Shown: positions 23,112-60,340 of the stretch, one piece after another
Layout of the letters: every line of letters starts with the position of its first letter
Position numbering within the stretch: position 1 is the stretch's first letter
Source of the DNA: Patescibacteria group bacterium
Lineage (GTDB): Bacteria; Patescibacteriota; Minisyncoccia; Phycocordibacterales; UBA9973
DNA length: 64,000 bases
Direction of reading: 5' to 3'
Assembly (NCBI GenBank): GCA_028868715.1
Contig: JAGWUB010000001.1
Location: 53,480-117,479, forward strand
The notes under the pieces: generated by a model
What the model saw: only the letters and a program-made list of their open reading frames with translations
Told to the model about the DNA's origin: nothing
Database searches by the model: none
Program-made: the position numbers and the translations under genes

Positions 23112-23113
23112 TT

Positions 23114-45016: not shown

Positions 45017-45880
45017 TTGGCGGTGGTTTTTGTCGTTGTGCTTTTTCTCACAAAAAACAAAACTTTCTTTACAAATACAAGACCAGATGGACTAGTTTAC
45101 AACGGAAATGAAAAAATTCAAGATTTAGTAAATAGGGACACTGATGGAGATGGTGTACCAGATTGGGAAGAATCTTTATATGGGACTGATCCGACTAAAA
45201 AATCCACTTTTGATGGCATTCCAGATGCCGTGTATATAGCCAAATTAAGTGGACAATCACCGCAAAATGGAGAAATAAACCTAAATATCAAAGGGCAGGA
45301 AAATTTGACGCAAACAGATCAGCTTTCCAGAGAGCTTTTTTCCAGTGTGGCGGCCTTAAATCAAGCTGGGGGTATAGACCAAAATGCCGTAGACCAATTA
45401 AGTAATTCCTTGGCTAGTAAGATACAAAACGGAGAAGCTAGAAAAATGTTTGTATATTCTGATGTTAGGGTTGGGAAAAGTGATAGTGTGCAGGCTATAA
45501 AAAATTATAATACCACGTTAAATAATATTTATTCTAAATATCCAATGAAATACACGATAGGTGATGTGCTGCAAAAATTTATTATTGATCAAAACAATGT
45601 CGACGAGAGTGTATTGCCACAATTCGATCCGATCATAAAACAGACAAACAATATCATAAATGATATGTCTAAAATGGATGTGCCGCCAAGTTTAGCATAT
45701 CTGCACTTAGATACGTTAAATAAATTAGAAAAAGTATACGAAAATGTCACTGACATTAGACAATACAGCACAGACATAGTTGTAGCTATGAGTGGTATCA
45801 GCCAATATCAGACAAGCGCCGATAATTTAGTTTCCAGCACAAATAATCTGGCTAGTGCCATAGAAAATAGATTGAAATAA
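45017..45880 (+). CDS. Membrane-anchored hypothetical protein with a DxDGDGxxD calcium-binding-like motif. It is the first gene of the T4SS-like block and appears to use a TTG start.
   Basis: N-terminal TM VVFVVVLFLT. DTDGDGVPDWEE is a thrombospondin-type-3/calcium-binding-like motif. No ATG is available, so the start is uncertain. Confidence 0.4.
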   Translation: MAVVFVVVLFLTKNKTFFTNTRPDGLVYNGNEKIQDLVNRDTDGDGVPDWEESLYGTDPTKKSTFDGIPDAVYIAKLSGQSPQNGEINLNIKGQENLTQTDQLSRELFSSVAALNQAGGIDQNAVDQLSNSLASKIQNGEARKMFVYSDVRVGKSDSVQAIKNYNTTLNNIYSKYPMKYTIGDVLQKFIIDQNNVDESVLPQFDPIIKQTNNIINDMSKMDVPPSLAYLHLDTLNKLEKVYENVTDIRQYSTDIVVAMSGISQYQTSADNLVSSTNNLASAIENRLK

Positions 45881-45932
45881 TTGCTATTAGGGCTTCATTA
45901 TAAGGTAAATACAGGATATAATATAAATAAAA

Positions 45933-47930
45933 ATGAGCTTCGAAAATAAAACAACTCAAAAATTAATTTCCGCTCTCTTAATTATTTTGACTCTGATACC
46001 GACTGTTTTAATCTTTGTGCCAAAACAAGTAACTGCGCAGGGGCTCCCTGTGACCGCTTTTTGCCCCACCGCAACAAACCCTCAAGCTGTGTGTGCAAGT
46101 GAGGGCACTTCGTTTTGGCATAAAATTCTAACAGGTATGGTGGTTGGTACTAGTGCTACAACTGCAACAAATACAACTAAAGAAATAGTCACTGAGGCTT
46201 TAAAAGAAATCGTCCGAGTCGCGGCGCAAAGGTTGCTCGCGCAAATGACTCAAAGTACCGTAAACTGGATAAATACTGGCTTTCACGGAGCGCCACTTTT
46301 TGTGGAAAATCCTGGATCTTTCTTTGCTGATATAGGTAAAACCGAACTAAGAGACTTCGTAAATATAGTAGGCTATGACAGTGTTAATCAGCCTTTTGGT
46401 AAAAGCTTTGCTTTAAATGCTATAAATAGTTACCGAAGCACCTTTGCCAACAATGCCCAATACTCTTTTAGTAAAGTCACAAATGATCCTGTTTTGCTCA
46501 ATCACTTGAGGACAAATTTTAGCACCGGTGGTTGGGATGCATTTTTAATAAATAGTCAATTCCCTCAAAACAATTACCTCGGGTCTCAAATGATATATAC
46601 CGATGAACTGGCTAGAAGGTTGAGTGGCACAAATCCGACTCAAACAGATATAATCAAACAAACCTTGGCTCAAGGACAAGGATTCCTATCTCCACAGAAA
46701 TGTTTGACTAACCCTGATTATAATAATCTCAATAATCAATTTCATAAACCAACTTTCAAGTGTTCACCACCGACAGAAGATTGTAGTAATGACCCCACTG
46801 GCAACTGTGTTAGTCGTGAAATTATACGATGCAAGAGGGAAGAGTCTACTTGGGATGCAACCAATTTTTGTCCAAACAACCCAGCAGACGGAACTCCCGG
46901 CTTAGTAAATACTACTCCTGGATCAGTGGTAGCTTCATCTATAATGAAAGCGGTAAATGTGCCCATCGACAAAGCAACATTGGCTGGGACAGTGGGTAAT
47001 AGTTTGACTGATGGCTTGTCCGCTATTTTTGATGCCTTACTAAATAAACTAGTCTCTTCTGGATTAAATGCAATTACAAATCCAACGCACAACACAAACA
47101 GTGCTAATAATTCTACAAACAACGTAGCTGGCACAGGCTTTGACTGGACTGGAGCGGGGCAAACAGTAGCGCTTGGCACATTTAAAACAGATGTCCAAAC
47201 AGCAATAAACAGCGCCAACCAAGAGCTTAAATTGATAGACAATACTGATACAAATACTCCTGGAATTTTACAAATATTTAACCAAATTTGGCCAAAAACC
47301 GGAGAACTAGATATGTGCTTACCGGGACCAAACATTGGATGGGAAAATAGAGTAGATACAGACATACAAAATTCAAATGCGAATCCAACAACAATAGCTC
47401 CCGTAATAACTTCATTTAAAACATGGGTAACTAATAAGATGAGGGCAGAACTTCCAGACTCAAAAAACTTTTTGAGTACGGTTAATTCTATTGCCGAAGT
47501 AAATAAACAAGCGACTGACTTAAACAATAGGGAAAGTACAATAATAAATACTTTAACAAAACTTCAATCAATACAGGATGAATTGAGTGGTATAACCACT
47601 CAGCCAGACGCAGGCTCGGGGAGCGACACAGCTTTGACAAATTTGAAGCAAAGATATGATGGAATGCTGGTAGACCTATCTAGTCCTATCACTGTAGCTG
47701 ATATGCGAAATAAATTGGCTGACGCCAAAGACAACTTAACCAACTTGGGCACGCTCATTACACAATGCACCACAGAGCGAACTGCAAAAGGCTGGGCAAA
47801 CCCCGGAGGAGCAGATAGTGTGTTTAATAATTCCAGTACCGAAAAAAATGTATTTTGTAATTCGTACCCAAGTGTGCCAGTATCTTGTGATGCAGTTTTC
47901 CAGACTAGTGCAGAAGATTACAAAAAATAA
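45933..47930 (+). CDS. Large secreted or membrane-anchored protein (665 aa), hypothetical; a T4SS-associated surface component.
   Basis: N-terminal signal/TM LISALLIILTLIPTVLIFVP. It is Cys-containing and Thr/Asn-rich. No enzymatic motif. Confidence 0.5.
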   Translation: MSFENKTTQKLISALLIILTLIPTVLIFVPKQVTAQGLPVTAFCPTATNPQAVCASEGTSFWHKILTGMVVGTSATTATNTTKEIVTEALKEIVRVAAQRLLAQMTQSTVNWINTGFHGAPLFVENPGSFFADIGKTELRDFVNIVGYDSVNQPFGKSFALNAINSYRSTFANNAQYSFSKVTNDPVLLNHLRTNFSTGGWDAFLINSQFPQNNYLGSQMIYTDELARRLSGTNPTQTDIIKQTLAQGQGFLSPQKCLTNPDYNNLNNQFHKPTFKCSPPTEDCSNDPTGNCVSREIIRCKREESTWDATNFCPNNPADGTPGLVNTTPGSVVASSIMKAVNVPIDKATLAGTVGNSLTDGLSAIFDALLNKLVSSGLNAITNPTHNTNSANNSTNNVAGTGFDWTGAGQTVALGTFKTDVQTAINSANQELKLIDNTDTNTPGILQIFNQIWPKTGELDMCLPGPNIGWENRVDTDIQNSNANPTTIAPVITSFKTWVTNKMRAELPDSKNFLSTVNSIAEVNKQATDLNNRESTIINTLTKLQSIQDELSGITTQPDAGSGSDTALTNLKQRYDGMLVDLSSPITVADMRNKLADAKDNLTNLGTLITQCTTERTAKGWANPGGADSVFNNSSTEKNVFCNSYPSVPVSCDAVFQTSAEDYKK

Positions 47931-47935
47931 TTTAA

Positions 47936-50374
47936 ATGCGAAAAATACTTAAAAAATTAATTACGGCTGGTTTCATAGCCATCATACTAGTTGGACTGTT
48001 TAGCTCGCCAGCTAAAACTCAAGCGCAGACGGGATCACCAACAAAAGGAACCTGCACTATAACAGATACTAGTGAACGCCCTCCTATTGTTTCTAATGTA
48101 CCAAATCAAACATTTGATCAATGTACTGGACTAAAACCAACAACAGGTAATGTTGCTTGGGCAGCAGATGGTGGTGGAGCAACCGTAAATGCAGCACCAG
48201 CGGGTCCGACAGGAACTTGTACTACAGTTGATACAAGAGACACTGTAGATAAAACTCAATACCCAACTGGAGCTACAACCGTAGCAAAAACTACTCAAGC
48301 AGATTGTACAAAAATGAACCAACCTGGCCTAGTGGCAACTTGGACAGCAGATGCGACTGACAGCACTAGTAATATGTTTAAGCAGTGCTCACTTGATGGA
48401 AATTTTAGTATTGATAAATGTACCGTGTATGTTCTTTATATTATTTTTTATGAATTACCTGCTTACATTTTATGGTTAACGGCCTATATATTTAACGCCT
48501 CCATACCTTTAACTATCGGCACTGTTTTGTATCATAATAATTTTTTACCGGAAGCATGGAGAATCGTACGAGACTTTTCAAACATATTCTTTATCTTGGT
48601 GTTGCTATACGTGGCAATCAAAATGATTTTAGGGTTCGGTGGAGGAGAAGTAAAGAAAATGGTTGTGAACGTCGTGATCGCTGCCCTTCTCATCAACTTC
48701 AGCATGTTTATGACTGAAGTAGTAATTGATTCTTCAAATATTTTAGCTTTAATTTTTTATAATAAAATTACTGTGAATCCTGCTCAAACCAGTACCGAGA
48801 GTGATACCCCATATTACCCAACTTTAAATAAAGACAAAACGGCTATTGAAGAAAAGGATATTGCGGGCGGGATAGTAAAAGGTTTTGATATAACCAAATT
48901 TCTTAGCCCTGATTCAGTAACTCTACAAGTGGGCGACAAGCCTGCGGGTAGCGCTATGGCCACTGCGAAAAACACAGCGACTGGTACTGTGATCGGATCA
49001 ATTTTTGGACCCCTAGGTGGAGTCGCTGGGGGAGCTATCGGTTATTTATTTTCTGCTTCGGCATCAGGGAATCAAACTGGTCTTCAAGTAGCCATAATCT
49101 TCACGGCGTGCGCTGTGTTCCTAATGGCATCTTGGGCTTTTCTAATAGCCGGATTTGCATTTTTGGGAAGATTAATTGAACTTTGGATTTTAATTATCTT
49201 TTCACCTTTTGCTTTAATGTCTTTTTCTGTACCAAGATTAAAAAGTATAAAATTTTTAGGTTGGGATGCTTGGCTAGAGCGCTTGATGCATACTGCTTTT
49301 ATGGCGCCAATTTTTATGTTTTTCTTGTTACTGATATCAAAACTGGTACAAATAGATATCTTGGGCGGACTAACAAATACAGATAAGCCACCTTCAATTG
49401 CTCATGCATTACTTATCCTTGCAATTCCAGCAATAATATATCTGACCATGCTTTACAAAGCCACTGAGTATGCCAAAAAAAATGCGGGCGAATTTGGGGC
49501 AGCGGTAGTCAAGTATGGAGAAATGGCGGCAGTGGCTGTAGGTGGGTTGGCATTGGGTGCAGCGTCTGGAGGAACATCGATGGCAGCTACGGCAACTATT
49601 GGTAGAGCTGGTGCTGCTGCTGCTAATTCAGGGTGGGCTAAAAAATGGGAATCAAAAGGGTGGGGTGGTGAATACTTTAGGAGAGCAGCTACAGCTGTTG
49701 GCTCATCAAGCTTCGATGTTCGTGGAATAAAAATAGGAGGTAAAGCTTTGGGAACAACTATAGGAGCTGGTGAAGGAAGAAAAGATGGATTTACAGAAAG
49801 AAGGAAAAAACAAGTAGAAAATAGACAAAAGAGAGCTAAGGATCTTGAGGTTGGAGAGGATGAGCCATTAAAACAAAAGTTAAATAATTCAGAAAATGAC
49901 TTACAGCAAATGATGAATAAGGTTGCAAGAGATTTTGAAATAATCGATAAAGACTTGGAAGGTCAAAGACAAAAGAAAAACGATGCTGTAGTTGGGTCAA
50001 TTGAAGAAGCGACAGCTTCGAGAGAAATTGAGAGATTAAATAATATAAAGAGAGATATAAATGATGGCAAGGCCTTTAATTATGTAGATAGTGCTGGCGG
50101 TATTCATAATGTAAGTTCTACAACTGTAATAGGGGGAGATAATAATGGAAAAACTATAAAACAAATGCAAAGAGAAGTAATTCCTGAACAAAAAAATGAT
50201 GTAACAAAAGAAAATAGAGCAAGAAAATGGACTTACGCAGATACCACGCGAAGTAAGTTTGGGCAGGCAAAAAGTTTTGTGTTCAGTGGTGGAACACATA
50301 GTTTTGCAGGAGCACATGAAGCTGCTCACGCCATAATAATGGAAGCAAAATTGCCAGACAATGTGGCAAAATAA
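47936..50374 (+). CDS. VirB6/TrbL-like polytopic membrane protein (812 aa). It has an N-terminal secreted Thr-rich domain, then ~6-8 TM helices, then a charged C-terminal region.
   Basis: Signal peptide. A hydrophobic core YVLYIIFYELPAYILWLTAYIFNASIPLTIGTVL...FFILVLLYVAIKMILGF...VVIAALLINFSMFMTEVVIDSS...IIFTACAVFLMASWAFLIAGFAFLGRLIELWILIIFSPFALM is typical of TrbL/VirB6-type channel subunits. The call rests on architecture and context only. Confidence 0.5.
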   Translation: MRKILKKLITAGFIAIILVGLFSSPAKTQAQTGSPTKGTCTITDTSERPPIVSNVPNQTFDQCTGLKPTTGNVAWAADGGGATVNAAPAGPTGTCTTVDTRDTVDKTQYPTGATTVAKTTQADCTKMNQPGLVATWTADATDSTSNMFKQCSLDGNFSIDKCTVYVLYIIFYELPAYILWLTAYIFNASIPLTIGTVLYHNNFLPEAWRIVRDFSNIFFILVLLYVAIKMILGFGGGEVKKMVVNVVIAALLINFSMFMTEVVIDSSNILALIFYNKITVNPAQTSTESDTPYYPTLNKDKTAIEEKDIAGGIVKGFDITKFLSPDSVTLQVGDKPAGSAMATAKNTATGTVIGSIFGPLGGVAGGAIGYLFSASASGNQTGLQVAIIFTACAVFLMASWAFLIAGFAFLGRLIELWILIIFSPFALMSFSVPRLKSIKFLGWDAWLERLMHTAFMAPIFMFFLLLISKLVQIDILGGLTNTDKPPSIAHALLILAIPAIIYLTMLYKATEYAKKNAGEFGAAVVKYGEMAAVAVGGLALGAASGGTSMAATATIGRAGAAAANSGWAKKWESKGWGGEYFRRAATAVGSSSFDVRGIKIGGKALGTTIGAGEGRKDGFTERRKKQVENRQKRAKDLEVGEDEPLKQKLNNSENDLQQMMNKVARDFEIIDKDLEGQRQKKNDAVVGSIEEATASREIERLNNIKRDINDGKAFNYVDSAGGIHNVSSTTVIGGDNNGKTIKQMQREVIPEQKNDVTKENRARKWTYADTTRSKFGQAKSFVFSGGTHSFAGAHEAAHAIIMEAKLPDNVAK

Positions 50375-50383
50375 AATAAATTT

Positions 50384-50878
50384 ATGACAGAAAAATTACA
50401 ACAAATAATTAAGAGAGAGGTAGCAAAGTTGCCAAAATATACCCAGGAAGCAATAACTTCCTTGGATTGGGGAAATGTTATAGAACAAATCGGTAAAAAA
50501 TATTCTTTTAATGAGAGTGAGTTAAATGATCTACATGTACAGACATTACTGGTGTTGATAGGCCTTACAGACCCTAATTTATATGCAAAAAATATAGAGA
50601 ATGAAGTAGGTACTACTAAAGATGAAGCAGAAAAAATTGCAAGTGAAGCGTTTGAAAAAATATTTGAGCCAATCAACAATATTTTAGAAGAAAAGATTAA
50701 GAAAAATATGAAAGATAAAAAAACAGATGTGGTACAAAACGTTAATTTCATTCTTTCTGGCGGAGATTATTCTGTTTTTGTAGATGATGCAAATGTGGGC
50801 TCTCTTAATAGCCAAAAAACTGATAAACTAATAGGTACTTCAAATATTTTGGAAACAAAAAAAAGGTTAATAGATTAA
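50384..50878 (+). CDS. Small soluble hypothetical protein, member 1 of a tandem paralog pair.
   Basis: Shares LP...ITSLDW...GKKY.F.E.EL..L...TLL.L.GL..P with the next ORF. Confidence 0.4.
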   Translation: MTEKLQQIIKREVAKLPKYTQEAITSLDWGNVIEQIGKKYSFNESELNDLHVQTLLVLIGLTDPNLYAKNIENEVGTTKDEAEKIASEAFEKIFEPINNILEEKIKKNMKDKKTDVVQNVNFILSGGDYSVFVDDANVGSLNSQKTDKLIGTSNILETKKRLID

Positions 50879-50888
50879 TTAAATTTAT

Positions 50889-51599
50889 ATGGAAAATAAC
50901 ACAGTAGATTTATTACAAATAAAAATAGAGAATGCTAAAAAACAATTGCCGGATGAGACTGTGAATGCGATCGCAGCGGTTGATTGGAAAGCGGCCATTC
51001 TAAGTTTGCGAGAAAAGAAAGGATACAATTTTGAACAGCTTGGAGATTTGGAACTAGAAACAGAATTACTCTTGTGCGGACTTGCCAGCCCAGCAGAATA
51101 TCCTAAAGAATTGCAAAATAGAATGAGAATTTCTAAGGCAGAAACAGATGAATTGGTAAACGACATGAATATTTTGGTTTTTAATAAAATAAAAGAAGAA
51201 ATGATTAAAAATTCAGAAAGAAGAAAAGTATTTGAAAAGAAAGCCGAACCCATTAGAGCCAACGAAGTAGTGCAGGGATCCTCTGCCGCTGGTGGGATGG
51301 AGATAAATAAAACAGAAAATACCGTCCTAAAATCAGCTGGGATAGAAGTTATCAAGCCTGAAATTACAAGTGGAGAAAAACCAGTAGAAAGCAGAGAAGC
51401 TATCTTGAAAAAAGTTGAAAATCCAGAAACCCCAAAAGCACAATCCATGTTGGCGCAAAAAATTATGAGTTCAGTGCAAACACCAATAGTAAAAACAGAG
51501 CATACCCTAGAAAATATTTCAGGCAATAAAGGAGAGGTCGTAACACCAATAAAAAATCAGCCATTAAAAGTAGATCCGTATCGAGAATTACCCGAATAA
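50889..51599 (+). CDS. Small soluble hypothetical protein, member 2 of the tandem paralog pair, with a longer C-terminal tail.
   Basis: Its N-terminal ~110 aa align by eye with 50384..50878 (LPDETVNAIAAVDWKAAILSLREKKGYNFEQLGDLELETELLLCGLASP). Confidence 0.4.
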   Translation: MENNTVDLLQIKIENAKKQLPDETVNAIAAVDWKAAILSLREKKGYNFEQLGDLELETELLLCGLASPAEYPKELQNRMRISKAETDELVNDMNILVFNKIKEEMIKNSERRKVFEKKAEPIRANEVVQGSSAAGGMEINKTENTVLKSAGIEVIKPEITSGEKPVESREAILKKVENPETPKAQSMLAQKIMSSVQTPIVKTEHTLENISGNKGEVVTPIKNQPLKVDPYRELPE

Positions 51600-51612
51600 G
51601 GTGTAAATAATT

Positions 51613-52038
51613 ATGCAGTTTAAAGTTCCACAATTTTTAGAAATAGAAGACAAAATTTTTGGCCCATTTACTTTTCGGGAGTTTGTTTACTTGGTGGGTG
51701 GGGGAGGAATGTGCTTTGTAGTCTATAAATTACTGGGGCTTGTCTGGGGAGCGATACCTATCTTGGCCATTGCTGGATTTGCCGGAATGCTTACTTTTTA
51801 CCGCCCAAACAATAAACCCTTTATAGACATGCTGGAAGCTGGTTTTAAGTATGGGTTTCAAAGTAAACTGTATATCTGGAAAAGACGTCAGATTAAAGTT
51901 GCCAAAAATAAAGCTCCAGTGGTGGTTGAGGACAAAAATATAGCCATGAGAGAAAATGTAAAGTTAAGTGGTAATAAATTGCGAGACTTAGCTTGGAGTT
52001 TAGATGTTTTGGATTTAAAAAAGGAAGGTAATAATTAG
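51613..52038 (+). CDS. PrgI/VirB3-like small two-TM membrane protein, sited directly upstream of VirB4.
   Basis: 141 aa with two adjacent TM helices FVYLVGGGGMCFVVYKLLGLVWGAIPILAIAGFAGMLTFY. The position immediately 5' of a VirB4 homolog is typical of PrgI/VirB3-family proteins. Confidence 0.45.
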   Translation: MQFKVPQFLEIEDKIFGPFTFREFVYLVGGGGMCFVVYKLLGLVWGAIPILAIAGFAGMLTFYRPNNKPFIDMLEAGFKYGFQSKLYIWKRRQIKVAKNKAPVVVEDKNIAMRENVKLSGNKLRDLAWSLDVLDLKKEGNN

Positions 52039-52106
52039 ACCTTAGGCACTAGGCTCTAGCGAGAAAGCTAAAGCCTAACGCCTAGAGCCTAGAGCCCTAG
52101 AAAAAT

Positions 52107-52748
52107 ATGGCATTAAATGCAAAAGCAACTCAAGAGTTTGTACCGATAAAGGAGGTGCGCGACGGAACCATCGTGTTAAAAGATGGTGGCCTGCGGGCTA
52201 TTGTCTTGGCTAATTCAGTCAATCTTTCTTTGAAATCTGATGATGAACAGCGAGCAACGATACTTCAATTTCAAAACTTTTTAAATACTTTAGACTTTGC
52301 TATCCAAATATCAGTGCAATCAAGAAGATTGGACATTCGTCCTTATCTTTTGCTGTTAGAAAATAGAATCAAAGTCCAAAATGAACCTCTTCTAAAAATA
52401 CAAACAAAGGAATATATAGAATTTGTCAGAAGCTTTACCGAGTCGGTAAATATAATGACCAAAACTTTTTTTATTGTGGTACCTTATACCCACACGGTAT
52501 TAAAATCAGATTCTGGGGTTTTGGGAAAACTATTCAAGAGAAGCAGTAAGGAAGAGAAAAAAATTGAAAAAGAGGAGGATTTTGAAGAAAAAAAATCCCA
52601 GCTAGAACAGAGAGTGGGGGTGATACAACAAGGCCTTAGCCGTTGTGGCATAAAATCAGCCAGATTGGGTACTGAAGAAGTAGTGGAAGTTTTTTATAAG
52701 GTTTTCAATCCCGGAGAAGTGGAAGGAAAAATTAAACTTGAACAATAA
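52107..52748 (+). CDS. VirB4/TraE-family ATPase, N-terminal domain, encoded as a separate ORF.
   Basis: ATQEFVPIKEVRDGTIVLKDGGLRAIVLANSVNLSLKSDDEQ matches the conserved N-terminus of Gram-positive-type VirB4 proteins (PrgJ/TcpF/Orf16-like). TAA at 52746-52748 is followed 2 nt later by the ATG of the next ORF. Confidence 0.6.
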   Translation: MALNAKATQEFVPIKEVRDGTIVLKDGGLRAIVLANSVNLSLKSDDEQRATILQFQNFLNTLDFAIQISVQSRRLDIRPYLLLLENRIKVQNEPLLKIQTKEYIEFVRSFTESVNIMTKTFFIVVPYTHTVLKSDSGVLGKLFKRSSKEEKKIEKEEDFEEKKSQLEQRVGVIQQGLSRCGIKSARLGTEEVVEVFYKVFNPGEVEGKIKLEQ

Positions 52749-52750
52749 TT

Positions 52751-54625
52751 ATGATGGATTTTTTTAAAAAATTATTTGGTGGAAAAAATGTGCGGCCGAG
52801 CTTGGACGCTAGGCACGCGGGTGATAGTGGTATGCAAGCCACGGTAATGCCCGTCTTGCCGGAAGAAATCTATGAATCAGCCAGCATAGAATTGCAAGAC
52901 ATCATCGCTCCATCAGCTCTTAAAATTGAATCGAAATCAATAAACCTAGGAGAAAAGATAGCTCGTACTTTTTTTATAATATCTTATCCGAGGTTTTTAA
53001 CTGATAACTGGTTTTCTCCAATAATTAATTTGGATAAAGTTTTTGATATCTCAATCTTCATTCATCCGATAGATACTTCGCTAGCGCTAAGACAGTTTCA
53101 GAAAAAGGTTGCTGAAGTGCAAAGTCAGATAAATGTTCGTGAGAAAAAGGGTATGGTGCGTGACCCAATGCTGGATACTGCTTATCAAGATTTAGAAGGA
53201 TTGCGTGACAATTTGATCCAAGCGCAAGAAAAAATGTTTGATATGGGTATATATATCACTATTTATGCCGACAACGAGATGGAGCTTTTCAAAGTTGAGA
53301 ATGAGATAAAATCAATGCTGGAGTCCAGACTCATATATATCAAACCGGCCCTTTTCCAACAAGAAGAAGGTTTTAAAAGTATCATTCCGATAAATACTGA
53401 CCTGTTAAATATTCACCAAAAATTAAATTCAGAGCCGTTATCCAGTATTTTTCCTTTTGTTTCTTTTGACCTAACTTCAGATACTGGTATCCTCTACGGA
53501 ATAAACAGGCACAACTCAAGTTTAGTTATTTTTGATAGATTTTCTTTGGAAAACTACAACTCGGTAACCTTTGCTAAGTCTGGATCAGGAAAATCTTATG
53601 CGACTAAGCTGGAAATTTTGAGATCTCTGATGTTTGATATTGATGTCATGGTCATAGACCCAGAGCGGGAATATGAATTCTTGTCTGAAGCCGTCGGTGG
53701 AAGATATTTTAATATTTCTCTTTCAAGTGACCACCATATGAACCCTTTTGACCTGCCTATCCCTCGTGAGGATGAAACTGCCGAAGATGTGCTCCGATCA
53801 AATATTATAAACCTAGTCGGACTGTTTAGATTAATGCTCGGAGGACTAACCCCCGAAGAAGATTCACTGGTTGATCGCGCTATCTCAGAAACCTATGCGA
53901 TGAAAGATATAACTCCAGAATCAGATTTTTCAAACATTGAACCTCCACTGCTTTCTGACTTTGAAATGGTTCTCTCGGGCATGGAAGGAGCCGACTCTGT
54001 AGTTTCTAGGTTGGCAAAATATACTCATGGTTCTTGGGCAACATTTTTGAATAGACCAAGTAATGTAGATATTAATAAAAAATTCGTAGTATTTTCTATC
54101 CGCGACATGGAAGACGAATTAAAGCCAGTGGCAATGTATATCATCATGCATTTTATCTGGAATGCTATCCGTAAAAATCTAAAGAAGCGTCTCCTGGTGG
54201 TGGACGAAGCTTGGTGGATGATGAAATCCGAAGACACAGCATCCTTCTTGTATTCTATGGCAAAAAGAGGCAGAAAATACTATTTAGGACTTGCTACTAT
54301 CACCCAAGATGCGGCGGACTTTATGAAATCTCCCTATGGCATACCGATAGTTACCAACTCTTCTATACAAATTCTTTTAAAACAATCGCCAACCACCATA
54401 GACATACTACAAAAAACATTTAATTTAACGGATGAAGAAAAATATTTACTTTTGGAGTCTGGGGTAGGTGAAGGTATTTTCTTTGCAGGCCTAAAACATG
54501 TGGCTATCAAAGTCGTGGCCTCATATACGGAAGACCAAATCATAACTTCTGACCCATCACAAATATTGTTAAACCGAAAAGCAAAGGAAGATTATGAAAC
54601 AGCGGTAAAGGACGGGAAACTTTAA
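52751..54625 (+). CDS. VirB4-family type IV secretion ATPase, central and C-terminal ATPase domains.
   Basis: Walker A FAKSGSGKSYATK, Walker B LLVVDEAWWMM, and a C-terminal region typical of VirB4/TrsE/CagE. Confidence 0.85.
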   Translation: MMDFFKKLFGGKNVRPSLDARHAGDSGMQATVMPVLPEEIYESASIELQDIIAPSALKIESKSINLGEKIARTFFIISYPRFLTDNWFSPIINLDKVFDISIFIHPIDTSLALRQFQKKVAEVQSQINVREKKGMVRDPMLDTAYQDLEGLRDNLIQAQEKMFDMGIYITIYADNEMELFKVENEIKSMLESRLIYIKPALFQQEEGFKSIIPINTDLLNIHQKLNSEPLSSIFPFVSFDLTSDTGILYGINRHNSSLVIFDRFSLENYNSVTFAKSGSGKSYATKLEILRSLMFDIDVMVIDPEREYEFLSEAVGGRYFNISLSSDHHMNPFDLPIPREDETAEDVLRSNIINLVGLFRLMLGGLTPEEDSLVDRAISETYAMKDITPESDFSNIEPPLLSDFEMVLSGMEGADSVVSRLAKYTHGSWATFLNRPSNVDINKKFVVFSIRDMEDELKPVAMYIIMHFIWNAIRKNLKKRLLVVDEAWWMMKSEDTASFLYSMAKRGRKYYLGLATITQDAADFMKSPYGIPIVTNSSIQILLKQSPTTIDILQKTFNLTDEEKYLLLESGVGEGIFFAGLKHVAIKVVASYTEDQIITSDPSQILLNRKAKEDYETAVKDGKL

Positions 54626-54679
54626 GGCAAGAAAGTGGGTTCTGGGCGGTAGTTATTAGAAAATGATACAATTATTGTT

Positions 54680-55666
54680 ATGAAGTTAAAAGTTTTATCA
54701 TATTTAGGAATCGGATTGGCAATACTTGTAATAATAGTATCTATTTCACCGTTCCAAACGCGGGCAGCCGTCTCACCGAGCGCTATCTCTGTAGATATAA
54801 TGCCACTTAATCCCGCTGCGGGAGAAAGTACGACGATTGCCTTGGGTAGTTTCGCTACTAATTTAGATAGTGTCTCAATATCTTGGTATGTAAATGGTAA
54901 AAAAGTTTCTGCTGGAATTGGAATGAAAACATTTTCGGTCAACGCACCCGCAACTGGCTCATCGACTACGGTTCGAGCTGTAGTGTCTTTGGTAGATGGG
55001 GATATAGAAAAAAAAGTAGTGATAAGCCCCAATGTGATGGTCTTGCTATATCAAGCAACTGACTCATATGTACCGCCATTTTATCGCGGTAAGGCATTGC
55101 CGACAGTTGGAAGTGACATAAAGGTGGTAGCTATGCCTGAAGCAAAAAATATTTCTCCTCAAAATATGCTTTACGCTTGGAAAAGAAATTACACAAATGA
55201 TGCGACTGGATCTGGCTATGGCAAGAATTCTCTTACTTATACGAATGATTACTTATCAAACTCGGACAACGTTTCAGTGACAGTTTCTTCAATCGATGGA
55301 AAATATTCATCAGAGGCAAGCCTTGATATCGGACCAACCCAACCGAAAATATCTTTTTATAAAAACGACACTTTGCTCGGGACATTGTGGGAACAAGCCC
55401 TCACAGATGGACACATGGTAAAAGGTGATGAAGTGATGGTGGCAGAACCATATTTTATTTCACCGAAAGAATTGTGGAATCCAAGCTTGGTGTGGAATTG
55501 GTATATTAATGATAGCCTGACGGATAATACATCAAGCATTCATAAAAACTGGCTACCAATAAAGATAGAAGGGGGATCAACAGGAACTTCTGCTTTGAGA
55601 TTAGATATTAGTAGTAACGACCAAATTTTAGAAACAGCTAGTAAGCAAATAAATGTCACATTTTAA
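54680..55666 (+). CDS. Secreted hypothetical protein with repeated Ig-like beta-rich segments; T4SS-associated.
   Basis: Signal peptide MKLKVLSYLGIGLAILVIIVSISPFQTRA. No catalytic motif. Confidence 0.45.
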   Translation: MKLKVLSYLGIGLAILVIIVSISPFQTRAAVSPSAISVDIMPLNPAAGESTTIALGSFATNLDSVSISWYVNGKKVSAGIGMKTFSVNAPATGSSTTVRAVVSLVDGDIEKKVVISPNVMVLLYQATDSYVPPFYRGKALPTVGSDIKVVAMPEAKNISPQNMLYAWKRNYTNDATGSGYGKNSLTYTNDYLSNSDNVSVTVSSIDGKYSSEASLDIGPTQPKISFYKNDTLLGTLWEQALTDGHMVKGDEVMVAEPYFISPKELWNPSLVWNWYINDSLTDNTSSIHKNWLPIKIEGGSTGTSALRLDISSNDQILETASKQINVTF

Positions 55667-56825
55667 AATGAAAAAATATTTACCATACGTTTTAATACTA
55701 ATTATTATAGTGGGATTTTTTGGTTCAGCATTGAAAGTTAGTGCAGAAACATATCAACAATGCGTAGAAAGAACTAAAAACTTACCTATAGATACTAACG
55801 TAGATCCGTGTGCAGGATTACAACCAGACCCAGGAACTGTAATAAACAATAATGTCACCCCAGCAACCCCAAAAACACCAGACCCAGCAAGCTACCACCT
55901 CTTGCAACCACTCCCAGGTGTAAGTGGAGATTTTAGCCCTGGGCCGACAAATGCTCTAGGTAGTTATTTGAATTCAATGATAACTCTATTTATCGGTCTG
56001 TGTGCTGTGGTAGCGGTGGTGATGATTGTGATAGGTGGCATAGAGTGGTCTACAAGTGAACTCATTTCTAAAAAAGAAGCAGCCAAGGAGCGGATTTGGG
56101 GTGCTGTTTTAGGGCTTCTCTTGGCTCTGGGTTCATATGCTCTTTTATATACAATAAATCCTGATTTACTAAATACTAATGTGGATATTGGGGATGTGAC
56201 AATACAATCGACAATTGAGCAACAGATTAAAGACCTTGTAGATATAAGAACCTCGGGAATCCAAACTATTGATGGAAAACCAGGAGCTAAAATAAACTTT
56301 AAAGCAGAGGCTTGTCCGGTGGCGTTAGCTGTTGAGGGAACAACAGGAGTGAAAGCTGCATACCTTTTAGCAATATTTGACCAAGAGTCAAGTAGTGGGA
56401 GTATGGCTTTTTCAGGGTGCTCATCAAGTAACGCAAGTTGTGTTAAATGGCGACCTGGTACTGGAGATGAGCAAAAATTAAATCAAATATTGGCCGCAAT
56501 CGGAAAAACTTCTCCAGTAAACGTATCACCTGGCGGTACAGCTGGTGGCGCCTATGGTGGGTGTATGGGATATATGCAAGTTTGTCCATCAGAATGGATT
56601 AGGGTTGGTGGGTTGGGTAAAAACCCTTGGAACTTAAACGATTCAATGACAGTAGCTGCAAATCTTTTAGTAAGAGAAAAGGGCTATAATCAAAACCCAG
56701 CACAATCTGTTTGTAAGTATTTCGGTAGTTGTGGTGGTGGTGGTCTAGTTAATTATCAAGCAAGTGTTCTACGTAAGGCTGCAGCATTTCAAGACAGGAT
56801 TAATAAAGGAGATTGTAGTGCCTAA
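55653..56825 (+). CDS. Fusion of a T4SS pilin-like (VirB2/TrbC-like) N-terminal module and a C-terminal lytic-transglycosylase (SLT, VirB1-like) domain.
   Basis: Signal peptide. A Pro/Thr linker follows, then two hydrophobic helices (MITLFIGLCAVVAVVMIVIGGIEW; IWGAVLGLLLALGSYALLY) in a pilin-like topology. The C-terminal SLT core is LAIFDQESSSGS...GCMGYMQVCPSEW, with the catalytic Glu in the ES motif and a GxMQ motif. Confidence 0.55.
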   Translation: MSHFKMKKYLPYVLILIIIVGFFGSALKVSAETYQQCVERTKNLPIDTNVDPCAGLQPDPGTVINNNVTPATPKTPDPASYHLLQPLPGVSGDFSPGPTNALGSYLNSMITLFIGLCAVVAVVMIVIGGIEWSTSELISKKEAAKERIWGAVLGLLLALGSYALLYTINPDLLNTNVDIGDVTIQSTIEQQIKDLVDIRTSGIQTIDGKPGAKINFKAEACPVALAVEGTTGVKAAYLLAIFDQESSSGSMAFSGCSSSNASCVKWRPGTGDEQKLNQILAAIGKTSPVNVSPGGTAGGAYGGCMGYMQVCPSEWIRVGGLGKNPWNLNDSMTVAANLLVREKGYNQNPAQSVCKYFGSCGGGGLVNYQASVLRKAAAFQDRINKGDCSA

Positions 56826-56836
56826 ATGATAAAAAT

Positions 56837-58240
56837 ATGCCAAAAAGAAACTTTATACTTTTAATAACCATCTTAGCTCTCATAATAATCGGGCTATTTG
56901 GATTTTTATATTTACGCTCGGGAACAACTCCTGTGGAGGTTGTCAGCAATGGCACAAATTTTCTTTCTATGTTTAATCCATTTAGAAGCAATCCTTCTAC
57001 TCCTGGAACCACTCCACCTGAAACAAACACACCTGGCGAAGATCAAGGTACTCAGAGCGGGGAGGTGGTAGCAGAAAACTTGAAAAAAGTTTCCACCATG
57101 CCTATCGCTGGGTTCACAATATTTTCCAAAGAAAGATTAAAGGAAGTTCCAGTAGTAGTGCCACCTCCAAGCACTACTGACAGTACAACCACACCAGCAA
57201 CAACCACGACACCTACTACTACAACTCCAGCAACCCCTCCATCAGCGGCTCCAGTTAAAAAAGCGCCAGTGGTTAAGCCTGTTCCACCAAAAACTGAGTT
57301 TGCCGAAGCTGTCAGGTATGTAGAGAGAGCTACTGGAAATATATATCAAACTTTTGTAGATAAAATAGAAGAAAAAAAGTTTTCTCAAACAGTTATACCT
57401 AAAATATATGATGCCTATTTTGGCAATCAAGGAATGTCTGTAGTCATGCGACACTTAAAATTAGGGGATGCAACTATAGAAACTTTCTATGGTCTTCTGC
57501 CGAAAGAGAAATTTGGCGAAGATCTAACTAATAATGAAATAAAGGGATCATTCTTACCAGACAATGTTAAAGACATTAGCCTATCGCCAGACGCTTCAAA
57601 AATATTTTACTTATTAAACGTAGGAAATTCTGCGGTTGGTACAATTTTAAATTTAGCAGATGGCAAAAAAACTCAAATTTTTAATTCTGTTTTTTCAGAG
57701 TGGAATTCCAACTGGGGAAGTGCCAATACAATTACTCTGACTACAAAACCTTCAGGAGCCGTGCCTGGATATATGTATGCGATTAATGTAGGCACTAAGA
57801 ATTTCAGCAATGTACTCGGAAACGTAAATGGATTAACCACGCTGATGAGCCCAAGTGGTAAATTGGTCTTGGTAGGCAATGGATCTTTGTCATTATATAT
57901 CTACCATACAGACACAAAAGCATTTGACCAGCTTGGAGTAAATACTCTACCTGAAAAATGTACCTGGAATAAAATGAGTGATGCTGTCTATTGTGCTGTG
58001 CCGACATTTATTACTGGGGCAACTTATCCAGATGATTGGTATCGTGGAGAAATATCATTCTCTGACCAAATTTGGAAAATAAATATAAAAGATGGAAACA
58101 CTAAGATGATCGCGGATCCACTCGCAATAACCAACCCGGAAGATATTGATGGTATTAAGCTCGCCGTGGATAACAATGAAAACTATTTATTTTTTGTAAA
58201 TAAAAAAGACTCCTTTCTTTGGGAGCTATCTCTAAAATAA
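56837..58240 (+). CDS. Bitopic membrane protein with a Pro/Thr-rich linker and a beta-rich C-terminal domain; the last gene of the T4SS-like block.
   Basis: N-terminal TM ILLITILALIIIGLFGFLYL and a linker PPSTTDSTTTPATTTTPTTTTPATPPSAAP. The C-terminal domain is unrecognised. Confidence 0.45.
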   Translation: MPKRNFILLITILALIIIGLFGFLYLRSGTTPVEVVSNGTNFLSMFNPFRSNPSTPGTTPPETNTPGEDQGTQSGEVVAENLKKVSTMPIAGFTIFSKERLKEVPVVVPPPSTTDSTTTPATTTTPTTTTPATPPSAAPVKKAPVVKPVPPKTEFAEAVRYVERATGNIYQTFVDKIEEKKFSQTVIPKIYDAYFGNQGMSVVMRHLKLGDATIETFYGLLPKEKFGEDLTNNEIKGSFLPDNVKDISLSPDASKIFYLLNVGNSAVGTILNLADGKKTQIFNSVFSEWNSNWGSANTITLTTKPSGAVPGYMYAINVGTKNFSNVLGNVNGLTTLMSPSGKLVLVGNGSLSLYIYHTDTKAFDQLGVNTLPEKCTWNKMSDAVYCAVPTFITGATYPDDWYRGEISFSDQIWKINIKDGNTKMIADPLAITNPEDIDGIKLAVDNNENYLFFVNKKDSFLWELSLK

Positions 58241-58272
58241 AAATTCTTTTGTAGTATAAGAAAGAATTTTTT
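58238..58272. terminator. Bidirectional terminator hairpin between the T4SS block (+) and jag (-).
   Basis: aaaattcttt-gtagtataag-aaagaatttt with flanking A/T runs. Confidence 0.5.
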
Positions 58273-58762
58273 ATATTTCTCCGATGTATTTTATGACCAC
58301 TCGACGAGAGGGGCCGAAACCCATAGATTCTGTCTTCAGATCGGGCGCATCAGATAAAAATTCATGGACTACTCTACGTTCAAAAGCTGACATCGGATCT
58401 ACTTCTATGTTTGATTTAAAATATCTTGCCCTCTCAGACATCATGTGGGCCACCGCGCGAATACTATCTATGCGACGTTTTTGAAAATCGTTAATGTCTA
58501 TTAAAATCGAGCTTTCTTTGCGTTTTGCTGCTAATTCTGGCGTACTTGGTGCGGGCTCCTTGGCTTCAATTATCCTGCGAACTAGGTGGTTTAGAGCGTA
58601 AATAGCTTCACCTTCGTGTTTGATAAAAAAATGTGGATCCTTCACTTCAACGGCAAACCAAGTGCTGGTTCCCTTATCCTCAAGAACATTGACCTTAGGT
58701 GTGTCTAGGGTAATTTTTTCAATTAATTCTCCTATTAATTTTTGAACTTGTTCCTTATTCAT
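58271..58762 (-). CDS. jag: Jag/KhpB (KH plus R3H RNA-binding protein).
   Basis: R3H region RRVVHEFLSDAPDLKTESMGFGPSRRVVIKY. Its position downstream of yidC is conserved. Confidence 0.75.
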   Translation of the reverse strand: MNKEQVQKLIGELIEKITLDTPKVNVLEDKGTSTWFAVEVKDPHFFIKHEGEAIYALNHLVRRIIEAKEPAPSTPELAAKRKESSILIDINDFQKRRIDSIRAVAHMMSERARYFKSNIEVDPMSAFERRVVHEFLSDAPDLKTESMGFGPSRRVVIKYIGEI

Positions 58763-59528: not shown

Positions 59529-59598
59529 TAGCCCATTCTATCCCATAGTCCGGTTTTTAGCAAAATTTATTGCGAGATAGGTATGAAAATTAATTTGA

Positions 59599-59814
59599 TC
59601 ACTTTAATGGGTCTATGTGGATTTTTTGCCATGGATGACACCTTAAAATACGAAAAAATCCCAAATAACTCCCTTTTACTATTCCATATTTTTGGATAGC
59701 TTCTTTGGTGTACTCCGAGCAAGTAGGATAAAAAACGCAACTCGGTTTAATAAAAACAGAAATGTATTTTTGGTAAAAATTAATTAATTTTATTGAGTAT
59801 GTTTTTAATTTCAT
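59599..59814 (-). CDS. yidD: Membrane protein insertion efficiency factor YidD.
   Basis: CVFYPTCSEYTKEAIQKYGIVKGSYLGFFRILRCHPW...HIDPL is the YidD signature. The start is taken at the internal Met, giving the usual ~70 aa. It overlaps the rnpA 3' end, as is common. Confidence 0.75.
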   Translation of the reverse strand: MKLKTYSIKLINFYQKYISVFIKPSCVFYPTCSEYTKEAIQKYGIVKGSYLGFFRILRCHPWQKIHIDPLK

Positions 59815-60106: not shown

Positions 60107-60130
60107 TGTTTACCCATAAAGGATATTCGC

Positions 60131-60320: not shown

Positions 60321-60340
60321 TTATCCACAGATTATCAACA
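60321..60340 (+). promoter_or_regulatory. DnaA boxes upstream of dnaA: TTATCCACA (perfect) and TTATCAACA (one mismatch).
   Basis: The plus strand reads cTTATCCACAgaTTATCAACAgg, about 50 nt upstream of dnaA. Confidence 0.7.

What the first reader, a model, noticed from the sequence alone, without database searches (positions are those of the whole stretch)
45017..58240. Origin-proximal T4SS/conjugation-like apparatus block lacking relaxase and coupling protein
Eleven co-directional plus-strand genes form this block. They encode a split VirB4 ATPase, a VirB6/TrbL-like polytopic protein, a PrgI/VirB3-like protein, a pilin-like/SLT fusion, several signal-peptide proteins and a tandem pair of small soluble paralogs. 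I see no relaxase, no VirD4-type coupling ATPase, no VirB11 and no oriT. The block sits in a core position between ksgA and jag-yidC-rnpA-rpmH, next to oriC, rather than on an obvious mobile element. Its genes all point towards oriC, that is, head-on to the leftward replication fork. This fits a chromosomally fixed secretion/pilus/DNA-uptake machine rather than a conjugative element, and most components have no assignable family. It is the best candidate for an under-described system in this window.
Basis: partly seen in the sequence, partly recalled or inferred. Interest (0 to 1): 0.75.

Follow-up and report, generated by a model that had tools for sequence, protein, structure and literature searches.

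The report
Patescibacteria chromosomal type IV secretion system
This gene block is the relaxase-less type IV secretion machine that sits next to the replication origin in ultra-small Patescibacteria; it was described in 2023-2025, so this locus is one more ordinary member of a system whose function is still unknown.

Summary
Eleven co-directional, tightly packed genes (45017-58240, +) lie between ksgA and jag-yidC-yidD-rnpA-rpmH | dnaA-dnaN. They encode a split VirB4 (TrsD-like piece plus a CD1110-family ATPase), PrgI/VirB3, an 812-aa protein with a VirB6-like fold, a VirB2-like pilin module fused to a peptidoglycan hydrolase, two cytoplasmic paralogs, and four anchored or secreted proteins. 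No relaxase, VirD4, VirB11 or flanking att site occurs in the 64 kb.

The organism is a Paceibacteria/Nomurabacteria MAG. The same gene order next to dnaA recurs in 55 of 55 related species loci that reach dnaA. VirB4 is more conserved than DnaA.

Quinonero-Coronel et al. 2025 describe this relaxase-less, dnaA-proximal system. Wang et al. 2023 showed the homologous system is essential in a Saccharibacterium. Novelty: already known.

Two details appear unreported in the papers I read. The pilin module occurs only as the N-terminus of larger proteins here, and their C-terminal cell-wall hydrolase domains are swapped between close relatives. Two unassigned genes are conserved with the core: one has three Ig-like domains, the other is probably a TolB-like propeller.

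The parts
45017..45880 (+). Gene A, 287 aa: short hydrophobic N-terminus, one bacterial TSP3 (calcium-binding) repeat, then an unassigned domain. First gene of the block.
   Evidence: PF18884 TSP3_bac scores 26.7 bits, above the cut-off of 25. Positional orthologs were found in 35 loci, most of which begin with a hydrophobic N-terminus. A family profile has no PDB relative.
45933..47930 (+). Gene B, 665 aa: signal/anchor helix (residues 11-29), 12 cysteines, a conserved N-terminal domain and a variable C-terminal part. It lies directly upstream of the VirB6-like gene. It may be a VirB5/TraI-like analogue, but this is a weak lead.
   Evidence: No Pfam, NCBIfam or PDB hit for this copy. Of the 37 family members, 2 hit DUF4141, the gene next to traJ/traG in Bacteroides conjugative transposons, and 4 hit T2SS-T3SS_pil_N.
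47936..50374 (+). Gene C, 812 aa: extended VirB6-like polytopic membrane protein. It has a signal/anchor helix, a small extracellular beta domain, a core of about 6 TM helices, and a long cytoplasmic helical C-terminal domain.
50384..50878 (+). Gene D, 164 aa: cytoplasmic helical protein and paralog of E. Family unknown.
   Evidence: 33% identity to E over 98 aa, E 1e-5. No Pfam or PDB relative for the family. No TM segment.
50889..51599 (+). Gene E, 236 aa: cytoplasmic paralog of D, with a longer tail that ends in a conserved DPYRExPE motif.
   Evidence: (family consensus ends ...DPYRExPE).
51613..52038 (+). PrgI/VirB3-like small membrane protein, 141 aa.
   Evidence: PF12666 PrgI scores 35.3 bits, above the cut-off of 27. 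Present in 77 of 80 loci, mean 57% identity.
52107..52748 (+). TrsD-like protein, 213 aa: the detached N-terminal domain of VirB4.
   Evidence: NCBIfam VirB4_plasma positions 102-234, E 1e-10; TrsD/TraD family E 1.3e-5; CD1110 positions 2-119. It is a separate ORF in 80 of 80 loci, mean 70% identity.
52751..54625 (+). VirB4 ATPase body, 624 aa, CD1110/MPF_FATA-like, with intact Walker A and B motifs.
   Evidence: NF045971 scores 367.5 bits, above the cut-off of 325; PF19044 E 1.4e-24. 27% identity to pCF10 PrgJ residues 228-772. More than 8000 homolog clusters were found, and the top 120 are 86-96% identical and all from Patescibacteria.
54680..55666 (+). Gene I, 328 aa: an N-terminal membrane anchor followed by three tandem Ig/FN3-like beta-sandwich domains, predicted to be extracytoplasmic.
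55653..56825 (+). Gene J, 390 aa: signal/anchor helix, a Cys/Pro-rich segment, a VirB2-like pilin hairpin (about residues 80-174), and a C-terminal probable lytic transglycosylase with a QES motif.
   Evidence: T4SS_pilin 23.3 bits; Mbov_0395 pilin-like E 6.5e-5; SLT_2 E 0.009; MltB_2 E 0.0017. 62 of the 67 family members hit T4SS_pilin. The C-terminal domain falls in one BLAST cluster with those of L016 and L029; whether those two are among the three family members that hit SLT_2 (best E 2.9e-9) was not determined.
56837..58240 (+). Gene K, 467 aa: N-terminal membrane anchor, a Pro/Thr-rich linker, and a C-terminal domain that is probably a TolB-like beta-propeller.
   Evidence: A family profile matches the TolB propeller in the PDB at E 0.016. 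PD40 repeats are hit by 4 of the 67 family members and PG_binding_1 by 4 of 67. Present in 68 of 80 loci. No structure was predicted for this protein.
58271..60265 (-). Conserved right-hand flank: jag (58271-58762), yidC (58755-59528), yidD, rnpA (59780-60106) and rpmH (60131-60265).
   Evidence: Pfam R3H, 60KD_IMP, YidD and Ribonuclease_P hits. The L34 translation confirms rpmH. The flank is syntenic in 52-63 loci.
60321..61916 (.). Putative oriC region: DnaA boxes at 60321-60340 and 61694-61916, flanking dnaA (60390-61745, +).
   Evidence: Consensus or one-mismatch TTATCCACA sites cluster here. DnaA and DnaN are confirmed by Pfam.

Best explanation
The block is the chromosomal, vertically inherited Patescibacteria-type type IV secretion system. 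It is a monoderm (MPF_FATA-derived) machine that has lost its link to conjugation.

Proposed mechanism:
- A VirB4 ATPase, with its N-domain encoded separately as a TrsD-like protein, docks on PrgI/VirB3 and on an extended VirB6 in the cytoplasmic membrane to form the powered translocon.
- The J protein inserts through a VirB2-like hairpin and displays a peptidoglycan hydrolase outside the membrane, where it opens cell wall.
- The anchored or secreted proteins A, B, I (three Ig-like domains) and K (TolB-like propeller) build the extracytoplasmic, wall-spanning or host-contacting part. They stand in for the missing VirB7/9/10.
- D and E are cytoplasmic accessory or adaptor proteins.

With no relaxase or coupling protein in cis, the machine is not moving its own DNA. 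It most likely serves the episymbiotic lifestyle as a contact conduit to the host cell. My estimate is about 45% for extraction or uptake of host macromolecules (nucleic acids), about 30% for export of effectors or hydrolases, and the remainder for a pilus/adhesion role only.

What is shown: component identities, synteny, vertical inheritance, and the absence of DNA-processing genes in the window. What is inferred: assembly, topology, cargo and direction of transport.
For: Component identities are given.

No relaxase, T4CP, VirB11 or att site was found in the 64 kb.

Evidence for core status:
- At least 590 species-level genomes carry a close VirB4 relative.
- The same 11-gene order is seen in the related loci.
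- dnaA lies downstream on the same strand in 55 of 55 loci.
- VirB4 averages 82.9% identity against 74.3% for DnaA, and exceeds DnaA in 47 of 47 loci.
- VirB4 and DnaA identities correlate (Spearman 0.87).
- GC content equals that of the flanks.

Literature:
- PMC12102498 describes the same clade-specific T4SS (TrsD, VirB4, PrgI, VirB6, VirB2-like pilin; VirB1 linked to virB4 in Paceibacteria; relaxase absent; near dnaA, dnaN, rnpA, ksgA and rpmH).
- PMC10633639 shows by Tn-seq that the homologous locus is essential for epibiotic growth, while comEC is dispensable.
- PMC12857230 and PMC11665869 discuss an uptake or conduit role.
- bioRxiv 10.64898/2026.06.21.733656 reports host-RNA feeding by a cultivated member of the phylum (Minisyncoccota/Patescibacteria), with tubular structures at the host interface that may be T4SS pili.
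Against: - No experiment exists for any Paceibacteria T4SS. Essentiality is known only for a Saccharibacterium whose locus differs: it has free pilin arrays and a different neighbourhood.
- The VirB6 assignment rests on fold similarity of moderate Z. One equal-scoring hit is a designed helical repeat, and Foldseek E is 0.62.
- No VirB8-like (NTF2) component was identified. A, B, D, E and K were not folded.
- A T4CP and a relaxase could lie elsewhere in the genome; only 64 kb of a 312.6-kb contig of a multi-contig MAG was seen.
- The direction of transport and the cargo are pure inference.
Confidence: 0.8

Rival explanations
1. A working conjugation (DNA export) system whose relaxase, oriT and VirD4-type coupling protein are encoded elsewhere in the genome.
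For: PMC12102498 reports 5,713 VirD4 homologues in 2,918 Patescibacteria genomes, mostly far from virB4. Only 64 kb of this genome was available. The VirB4 belongs to a family otherwise used for conjugation.
Against: Relaxases were detected in only 103 Patescibacteria genomes in that survey. The t4cp homologue of S. epibionticum was not essential, whereas the T4SS genes were. The block is fixed next to dnaA and co-diverges with DnaA, which is not the behaviour of a self-transmissible element. No oriT-like or att feature was seen.
Confidence: 0.06
2. A dedicated nucleic-acid import machine, analogous to H. pylori ComB or the archaeal Ced system. Here a VirB4-only T4SS pulls DNA or RNA from the host or the environment into the cell.
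For: T4CP-less architecture, as in ComB. Weak CedB similarity in the P-loop region (E 1.4e-8). Patescibacteria lack nucleotide synthesis. PMC11665869, PMC12102498 and the 2026 RNA-feeding preprint all raise this idea.
Against: No ComB-type VirB7/9/10 and no CedA homologue were found. In S. epibionticum the T4SS is essential while comEC is dispensable, so any import would need another inner-membrane route. There is no direct evidence for the direction of transport.
Confidence: 0.35
3. A contact-dependent protein or effector exporter that attacks or manipulates the host cell. The variable hydrolase domain of J, and possibly B, would be delivered or displayed as payloads.
For: The C-terminal cell-wall-enzyme domain of J is replaced between close relatives, a pattern typical of polymorphic effectors. 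Wang et al. favour protein export or an alternative role. There are T4CP-less precedents: Ptl and Brucella VirB.
Against: J could equally be the system's own VirB1-type wall-remodelling enzyme. No immunity-like gene or effector signal was identified. No effector repertoire is known.
Confidence: 0.25
4. A decaying remnant of an integrated conjugative element with no current function.
For: Relaxase and T4CP are absent. A tyrosine recombinase lies 7.4 kb upstream at 36701-37648.
Against: All 11 ORFs are intact. VirB4 is more conserved than DnaA across 47 genomes, and the block order is preserved in dozens of species. The recombinase is separated from the block by housekeeping genes. GC content equals that of the flanks.
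Confidence: 0.01

Closest known systems
Patescibacteria-clade T4SS (Quinonero-Coronel et al. 2025, PMC12102498; Southlakia epibionticum SEML1_0006-0019, Wang et al. 2023, PMC10633639)
   Same: It has the same component set: TrsD-like protein, VirB4, PrgI/VirB3, VirB6, a VirB2-like pilin module and a wall hydrolase. It has no relaxase nearby. It sits in the same Paceibacteria neighbourhood (dnaA, dnaN, rnpA, ksgA, rpmH). The VirB4 homologs that carry a source name are all labelled Patescibacteria lineages.
   Different: Nothing essential differs; this locus is one member. Compared with the Saccharibacterial prototype, this lineage has no free pilin array. Its pilin module is fused to a hydrolase, and it carries lineage-specific accessory genes (A, B, D/E, I, K).
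MPF_FATA conjugative T4SSs of Gram-positive plasmids (pGO1/pSK41 trsC-D-E-F-G; pIP501; pCF10 prgH-I-J-K-L)
   Same: VirB4 is of the CD1110 type, 27% identical to PrgJ. A separate TrsD-like gene precedes VirB4, as in pGO1. A PrgI-family VirB3 is present. A membrane-anchored wall hydrolase lies downstream of VirB4, in the position of TrsG, TraG or PrgK. There is no outer-membrane core and no VirB11.
   Different: There is no relaxase, T4CP, surface adhesin (PrgB) or recognisable VirB8-like protein. The VirB6 is of the extended type at 812 aa, against 266 aa for PrgH. A VirB2-like pilin module is present. The system is chromosomal, origin-proximal and vertically inherited rather than plasmid- or ICE-borne.
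T4CP-less T4SSs: H. pylori ComB (DNA uptake), Bordetella Ptl, Brucella VirB; archaeal Ced (CedB)
   Same: They work with VirB4 as the only dedicated ATPase and without a coupling protein or relaxase. They are precedents for import (ComB, Ced) or two-step export (Ptl).
   Different: ComB, Ptl and Brucella VirB are diderm machines with VirB7/9/10. Ced uses CedA/A1/A2. None of these components is present here, and CedB similarity is limited to the P-loop.
Mycoplasma ICE transfer module (Mbov_0397 VirB4, Mbov_0395 pilin-like protein)
   Same: These are wall-less or monoderm small-genome bacteria. The NCBIfam models for their VirB4 and pilin-like protein give the second-best VirB4 hit and the best NCBIfam hit for the pilin module of J.
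   Different: Scores are below the curated cut-offs (264.7 vs 590; 22.5 vs 40). Mycoplasma ICEs are mobile and carry their own DDE transposase and transfer functions.

Membership tests
Patescibacteria-clade T4SS | VirB4 belongs to the Patescibacteria monophyletic clade, sister to MPF_FATA | tested here: inconclusive
   The CD1110-family (MPF_FATA-type) model is hit above its cut-off. The top 120 of more than 8000 homolog clusters are 86-96% identical, and all that carry a source name are labelled Patescibacteria, Paceibacterota, Nomurabacteria or Minisyncoccia. No phylogenetic tree was built here.
Patescibacteria-clade T4SS | A separate TrsD-like gene lies next to virB4 | tested here: met
   52107-52748 hits the TrsD/TraD family at E 1.3e-5 (below the curated cut-off) and the N-terminal region of VirB4 at E 1e-10. 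It is a separate ORF in 80 of 80 loci.
Patescibacteria-clade T4SS | A PrgI/VirB3 homologue lies near virB4 | tested here: met
   PF12666 scores 35.3 bits, above the cut-off of 27.
Patescibacteria-clade T4SS | A VirB6 homologue lies near virB4 | tested here: inconclusive
Patescibacteria-clade T4SS | A VirB2-like pilin lies near virB4 | tested here: met
   The PF18895 module is hit in 62 of the 67 J-family members, best E 9e-10. The window copy scores 23.3 bits, below the cut-off of 26.6. The module is always part of a larger protein.
Patescibacteria-clade T4SS | No relaxase near virB4; origin-proximal context (dnaA, dnaN, rnpA, ksgA, rpmH) in Paceibacteria | tested here: met
   dnaA is downstream in 55 of 55 loci.
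Conjugative element (ICE or plasmid MPF_FATA) | Relaxase (MOB) and oriT | tested here: not met
   No relaxase Pfam family was hit by any ORF of 110 aa or more in the 64 kb. oriT cannot be searched for without its relaxase. The rest of the genome was not available.
Conjugative element (ICE or plasmid MPF_FATA) | VirD4/TcpA-type coupling protein | tested here: not met
   No T4SS-DNA_transf, TrwB or TraG-D_C hit in the window (same calls). Its presence elsewhere in the genome cannot be tested with these tools.
Conjugative element (ICE or plasmid MPF_FATA) | Integrase plus flanking att repeats, with patchy distribution and atypical composition | tested here: not met
   The only recombinase (36701-37648) is 7.4 kb away, behind housekeeping genes. 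No flanking direct repeat was found. GC is 0.381 against 0.378 for the rest of the window, and the block co-diverges with DnaA.
Gram-positive T4SS core set | VirB8-like (NTF2-fold) cell-wall complex protein | not tested
   No sequence hit was found. I was folded and is all-beta and Ig-like, not NTF2.
ComB / Ced DNA-import systems | ComB7/9/10 outer-membrane core, or CedA/CedA1/CedA2 with CedB | tested here: not met
   No such families were hit. CedB similarity is confined to residues 454-524, the P-loop region, at 33.9 bits against a cut-off of 700.

The most novel reading that the evidence does not exclude
In this Paceibacteria lineage the VirB2-like 'pilin' is never a free pilin. It is the conserved membrane or pilus-insertion module of a polymorphic protein whose C-terminal cell-wall enzyme is repeatedly exchanged between close relatives (NlpC/P60, VanY/M15, Amidase_5, YkuD, SLT, CHAP and others). 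If the hydrolase acts on the host's wall rather than the epibiont's own, then J would be the host-wall-breaching head of the T4SS and a determinant of host range. Its domain type should then track host cell-wall chemistry.
Probability: 0.25. Interest if true: 0.6.

Novelty: already known. Interest (0 to 1): 0.3.

Why it matters
The system itself matters. It is among the most conserved gene sets in a radiation that makes up a large share of bacterial diversity. It is essential in the one species tested, and its cargo and direction of transport are unknown. It is the leading candidate for how these ultra-small epibionts take what they need from host cells.

This window adds no new system. The comparative work does give testable handles on the Paceibacteria version:
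- a fold-level VirB6 assignment for a protein annotated everywhere as hypothetical;
- two conserved extracytoplasmic accessory proteins (three Ig-like domains; a probable propeller);
- a pilin-module/hydrolase fusion whose enzyme domain is swapped between close relatives, which could report on host specificity.

Tried and rejected
- Sequence-level test of VirB6: Pfam and NCBIfam on the window copy, Pfam on all 61 family members (the window copy plus 60 orthologs), a family profile against PDB sequences, and hhalign against pCF10 PrgH were all negative. Only the fold comparison gave support.
- Profile searches of the A, B, D/E and I families against PDB sequences gave nothing significant.
- D/E are not related to the nearby DUF5663 protein at 41710-42015.
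- Phmmer of the window J C-terminal domain against the PDB gave no hit. Its lytic-transglycosylase assignment rests on weak SLT_2/MltB hits and a QES motif. Stronger SLT_2 hits exist in two other J-family members, but which ones was not determined.
- The promoter/terminator scan showed no excess over shuffled sequence, so nothing can be said about operon structure beyond the tight gene spacing.
- GC skew as an origin test: raw skew follows the coding strand, and the replication component at 4-fold sites is not different from zero. The head-on claim therefore stays unverified.
- ICE reading: I looked for relaxase, T4CP, integrase and att repeats and found none associated with the block.
- Locus-derived alignments could not be used for structure prediction because of the tool restriction, so only C and I were folded.

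Full report
**What is there.** The region 45017-58240 holds eleven + strand ORFs with gaps of -14 to +68 bp. HMM scans give four firm anchors.
- 52751-54625 is a VirB4 ATPase. It scores 367.5 bits against NCBIfam NF045971 (CD1110 family, cut-off 325) and hits Pfam P-loop_TraG at E 1.4e-24.
- 52107-52748 matches only the N-terminal part of full-length VirB4 models and the TrsD/TraD family.
- 51613-52038 is a PrgI/VirB3 protein, above the Pfam cut-off.
- 55653-56825 carries a VirB2-type T4SS_pilin module at residues 105-158, plus weak SLT_2/MltB similarity in its C-terminal half.

VirB4 aligns to pCF10 PrgJ residues 228-772 at 27% identity, E 6e-46. The missing N-terminal 227 residues correspond to the separate TrsD-like gene. 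The two small proteins at 50384 and 50889 are paralogs. The remaining five proteins have no family hit, apart from one TSP3 repeat in the first.

**Surroundings.** Every ORF of 110 aa or more in the 64 kb was scanned against Pfam. All identifiable neighbours are housekeeping genes: NusA, PPase, trigger factor, ClpP, ClpB-like, RNase Y, LexA-like, MetK behind a SAM riboswitch, PNPase, CCA-adding enzyme, UvrD/PcrA, KsgA and others.

No relaxase, VirD4-type coupling protein or VirB11 was found. The only recombinase (36701-37648, XerC/D-like architecture) is 7.4 kb upstream, behind housekeeping genes. No direct repeat brackets the block.

To the right lie jag, yidC, yidD, rnpA and rpmH on the minus strand, then dnaA and dnaN. 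DnaA boxes cluster at 60321-60340 and 61694-61916.

**Organism and conservation.** The VirB6-like protein and protein I have 100%-identical database entries from an NCBI MAG named 'Patescibacteria group bacterium' (KGL67_00505 and KGL67_00535), on a contig of 312,596 bp. VirB4 has more than 8000 homolog clusters. The best 120 are 86-96% identical, and those that carry names are labelled Nomurabacteria, Paceibacterota or Minisyncoccia.

A scan of one genome per species found at least 590 loci encoding a close VirB4 relative, and I kept 80 with 10-kb flanks. In these loci the gene order is A-B-C-D/E-PrgI-TrsD-VirB4-I-J-K, followed by jag-yidC-yidD-rnpA on the opposite strand and then dnaA-dnaN. 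Most absences coincide with contig ends.
- dnaA lies downstream of virB4, on the same strand and within 9 kb, in 55 of 55 loci that reach it.
- Mean identity to the window is 82.9% for VirB4 and 70.2% for TrsD, against 74.3% for DnaA and 63.4% for DnaN.
- VirB4 exceeds DnaA in 47 of 47 loci, and the two identities correlate (Spearman 0.87).
- The 80 loci were chosen by VirB4 similarity, which may slightly favour VirB4 in this comparison.
- GC content of the block equals the rest of the window (0.381 vs 0.378).

This is a vertically inherited core locus, not a mobile element.

Protein I (54680-55666) folds with pLDDT 89.9 into an N-terminal membrane helix followed by three Ig/FN3-like beta-sandwiches. 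These have only generic structural neighbours. The protein is present in 74 of 80 loci.

Protein K (56837-58240) has an anchor helix, a Pro/Thr-rich linker and a domain that weakly matches the TolB propeller (E 0.016). Four of the 67 family members hit PD40 repeats and four hit a peptidoglycan-binding domain.

Protein B is a secreted, cysteine-rich protein directly upstream of the VirB6-like gene. Two of the 37 family members hit DUF4141, the gene adjacent to the VirB6-like traJ in Bacteroides conjugative transposons. That is a weak lead to a VirB5/TraI-like role.

D and E remain without relatives. No VirB8-like protein was identified, but A, D, E and K could not be folded.

**An additional observation.** The pilin module of J is conserved in 62 of the 67 family members (this copy plus 66 positional orthologs), but the C-terminal domain differs between them:

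| C-terminal Pfam family | Members (of 67) |
|---|---|
| NlpC/P60 | 13 |
| VanY | 9 |
| Amidase_5 | 8 |
| YkuD | 5 |
| Peptidase_M15_4 | 3 |
| SLT_2 | 3 |
| SLT | 2 |
| CHAP | 2 |

An HMM of the module finds it only in ORFs of 171-733 aa in the window and the 80 loci, and never in a small free pilin. The regions after the module form at least 10 mutually unrelated BLAST clusters. Genome pairs whose DnaA proteins are 90-93% identical carry different clusters, while pairs at about 50-56% share one. The enzyme domain is therefore exchanged repeatedly. The papers I read do not describe this.

**Comparison with the literature.** The finding matches a published system almost point for point.
- Quinonero-Coronel et al. 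2025 (PMC12102498) surveyed Patescibacteria. They report a monophyletic VirB4 clade related to MPF_FATA, with widespread TrsD, PrgI/VirB3, VirB6 and VirB2-like proteins.
- They find VirB1 homologues linked to virB4 in Paceibacteria.
- They find relaxases in only 103 genomes, and T4CP homologues mostly far from virB4.
- They note enrichment of dnaA, dnaN, rnpA, ksgA and rpmH next to virB4 in Paceibacteria.
- Wang et al. 2023 (PMC10633639) showed by Tn-seq that the T4SS locus of Southlakia epibionticum is essential during co-culture. They noted the lack of coupling and relaxase proteins.
- Reviews call the function 'completely unknown' and propose uptake from the host or effector delivery.
- A 2026 preprint reports host-RNA feeding by a cultivated member of the phylum (Minisyncoccota/Patescibacteria), with tubular structures that may be T4SS pili.

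**Mechanism.** Component identities, synteny and the absence of DNA-processing genes in cis are shown. The rest is inferred.
- VirB4, TrsD, PrgI and VirB6 form the membrane translocon.
- J inserts through its VirB2-like hairpin, so that its hydrolase lies outside the membrane.
- A, B, I and K form the wall-spanning or host-contact part.
- The machine serves host interaction rather than conjugation.

I put uptake of host macromolecules at about 45%, export of effectors or hydrolases at about 30%, and the remainder on a pilus/adhesion role only. Conjugation with factors in trans is unlikely (about 6%). An ICE remnant is excluded by the conservation data.

**Replication orientation.** Gene order and DnaA boxes place oriC at dnaA, which would make the operon head-on to the leftward fork. 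That orientation is conserved in all 55 loci that reach dnaA.

GC skew does not confirm it. Raw skew follows the coding strand. The replication component at 4-fold degenerate sites is +0.04, with a bootstrap interval of -0.02 to +0.10. About 68% of coding bases left of dnaA point towards it.

**Verdict.** The system is already known, and this locus is one of thousands of near-identical members. Interest is low to moderate. It rests on the open question of function and on the hydrolase-swapping and accessory-protein details.

Noticed in passing
window 55653-56825 and positional orthologs in L001-L080: The VirB2-like pilin module is conserved, but the C-terminal cell-wall enzyme domain is exchanged between orthologs (NlpC/P60, VanY, Amidase_5, YkuD, M15_4, SLT, CHAP). 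Genomes with 90-93% identical DnaA carry unrelated domains.
   Followed up: yes
window whole; L001-L080: No free small pilin gene occurs within about 10 kb of virB4 in this lineage. The pilin module is found only in ORFs of 171-733 aa. Three loci have two such genes. This contrasts with the free pilin arrays reported for Saccharimonadia.
   Followed up: yes
window 52751-54625 vs 60390-61745: VirB4 is more conserved than DnaA in all 47 genomes compared (mean 82.5% vs 73.4%). This is unusual for a secretion ATPase. The 80 loci were picked by VirB4 similarity, which may inflate the difference slightly.
   Followed up: partly
window 39093-41684: This 863-aa protein has no Pfam hit. It shares a domain of about 115 aa (residues 503-616) with a gene that sits inside the T4SS block, between B and C, in 13 related loci such as L015 and L021. 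It may be a displaced accessory component.
   Followed up: partly
window 50889-51599 (and family alignment A9): The E paralog family ends in a conserved C-terminal motif, DPYRExPE. This could be an interaction or recognition tail.
   Followed up: no
window 38000-60200: About 68% of coding bases left of dnaA, including the whole 13-kb T4SS operon, point towards the presumed origin and so would be head-on to the leftward fork. GC skew at 4-fold sites shows no replication signal.
   Followed up: partly
window 31652-31670 and 31776-31794: An exact 19-nt copy of the 3' end of tRNA-Gly(tcc) lies about 105 bp downstream of the tRNA. It looks like an att-type remnant and is unrelated to the T4SS block.
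   Followed up: no
window 14502-14598: A SAM (S-box) riboswitch lies directly upstream of the SAM synthetase gene at 14651-15628.
   Followed up: no
window 18244-24748: A co-directional cluster encodes a Glu/Leu-dehydrogenase-like protein, an unassigned 504-aa protein, a ThiF-like E1 enzyme, a nitroreductase-family protein and a 7TM histidine kinase. It may be a peptide-modification cluster.
   Followed up: no
window 659-3528: Two adjacent minus-strand ORFs of 451 and 474 aa have no Pfam hit.
   Followed up: no
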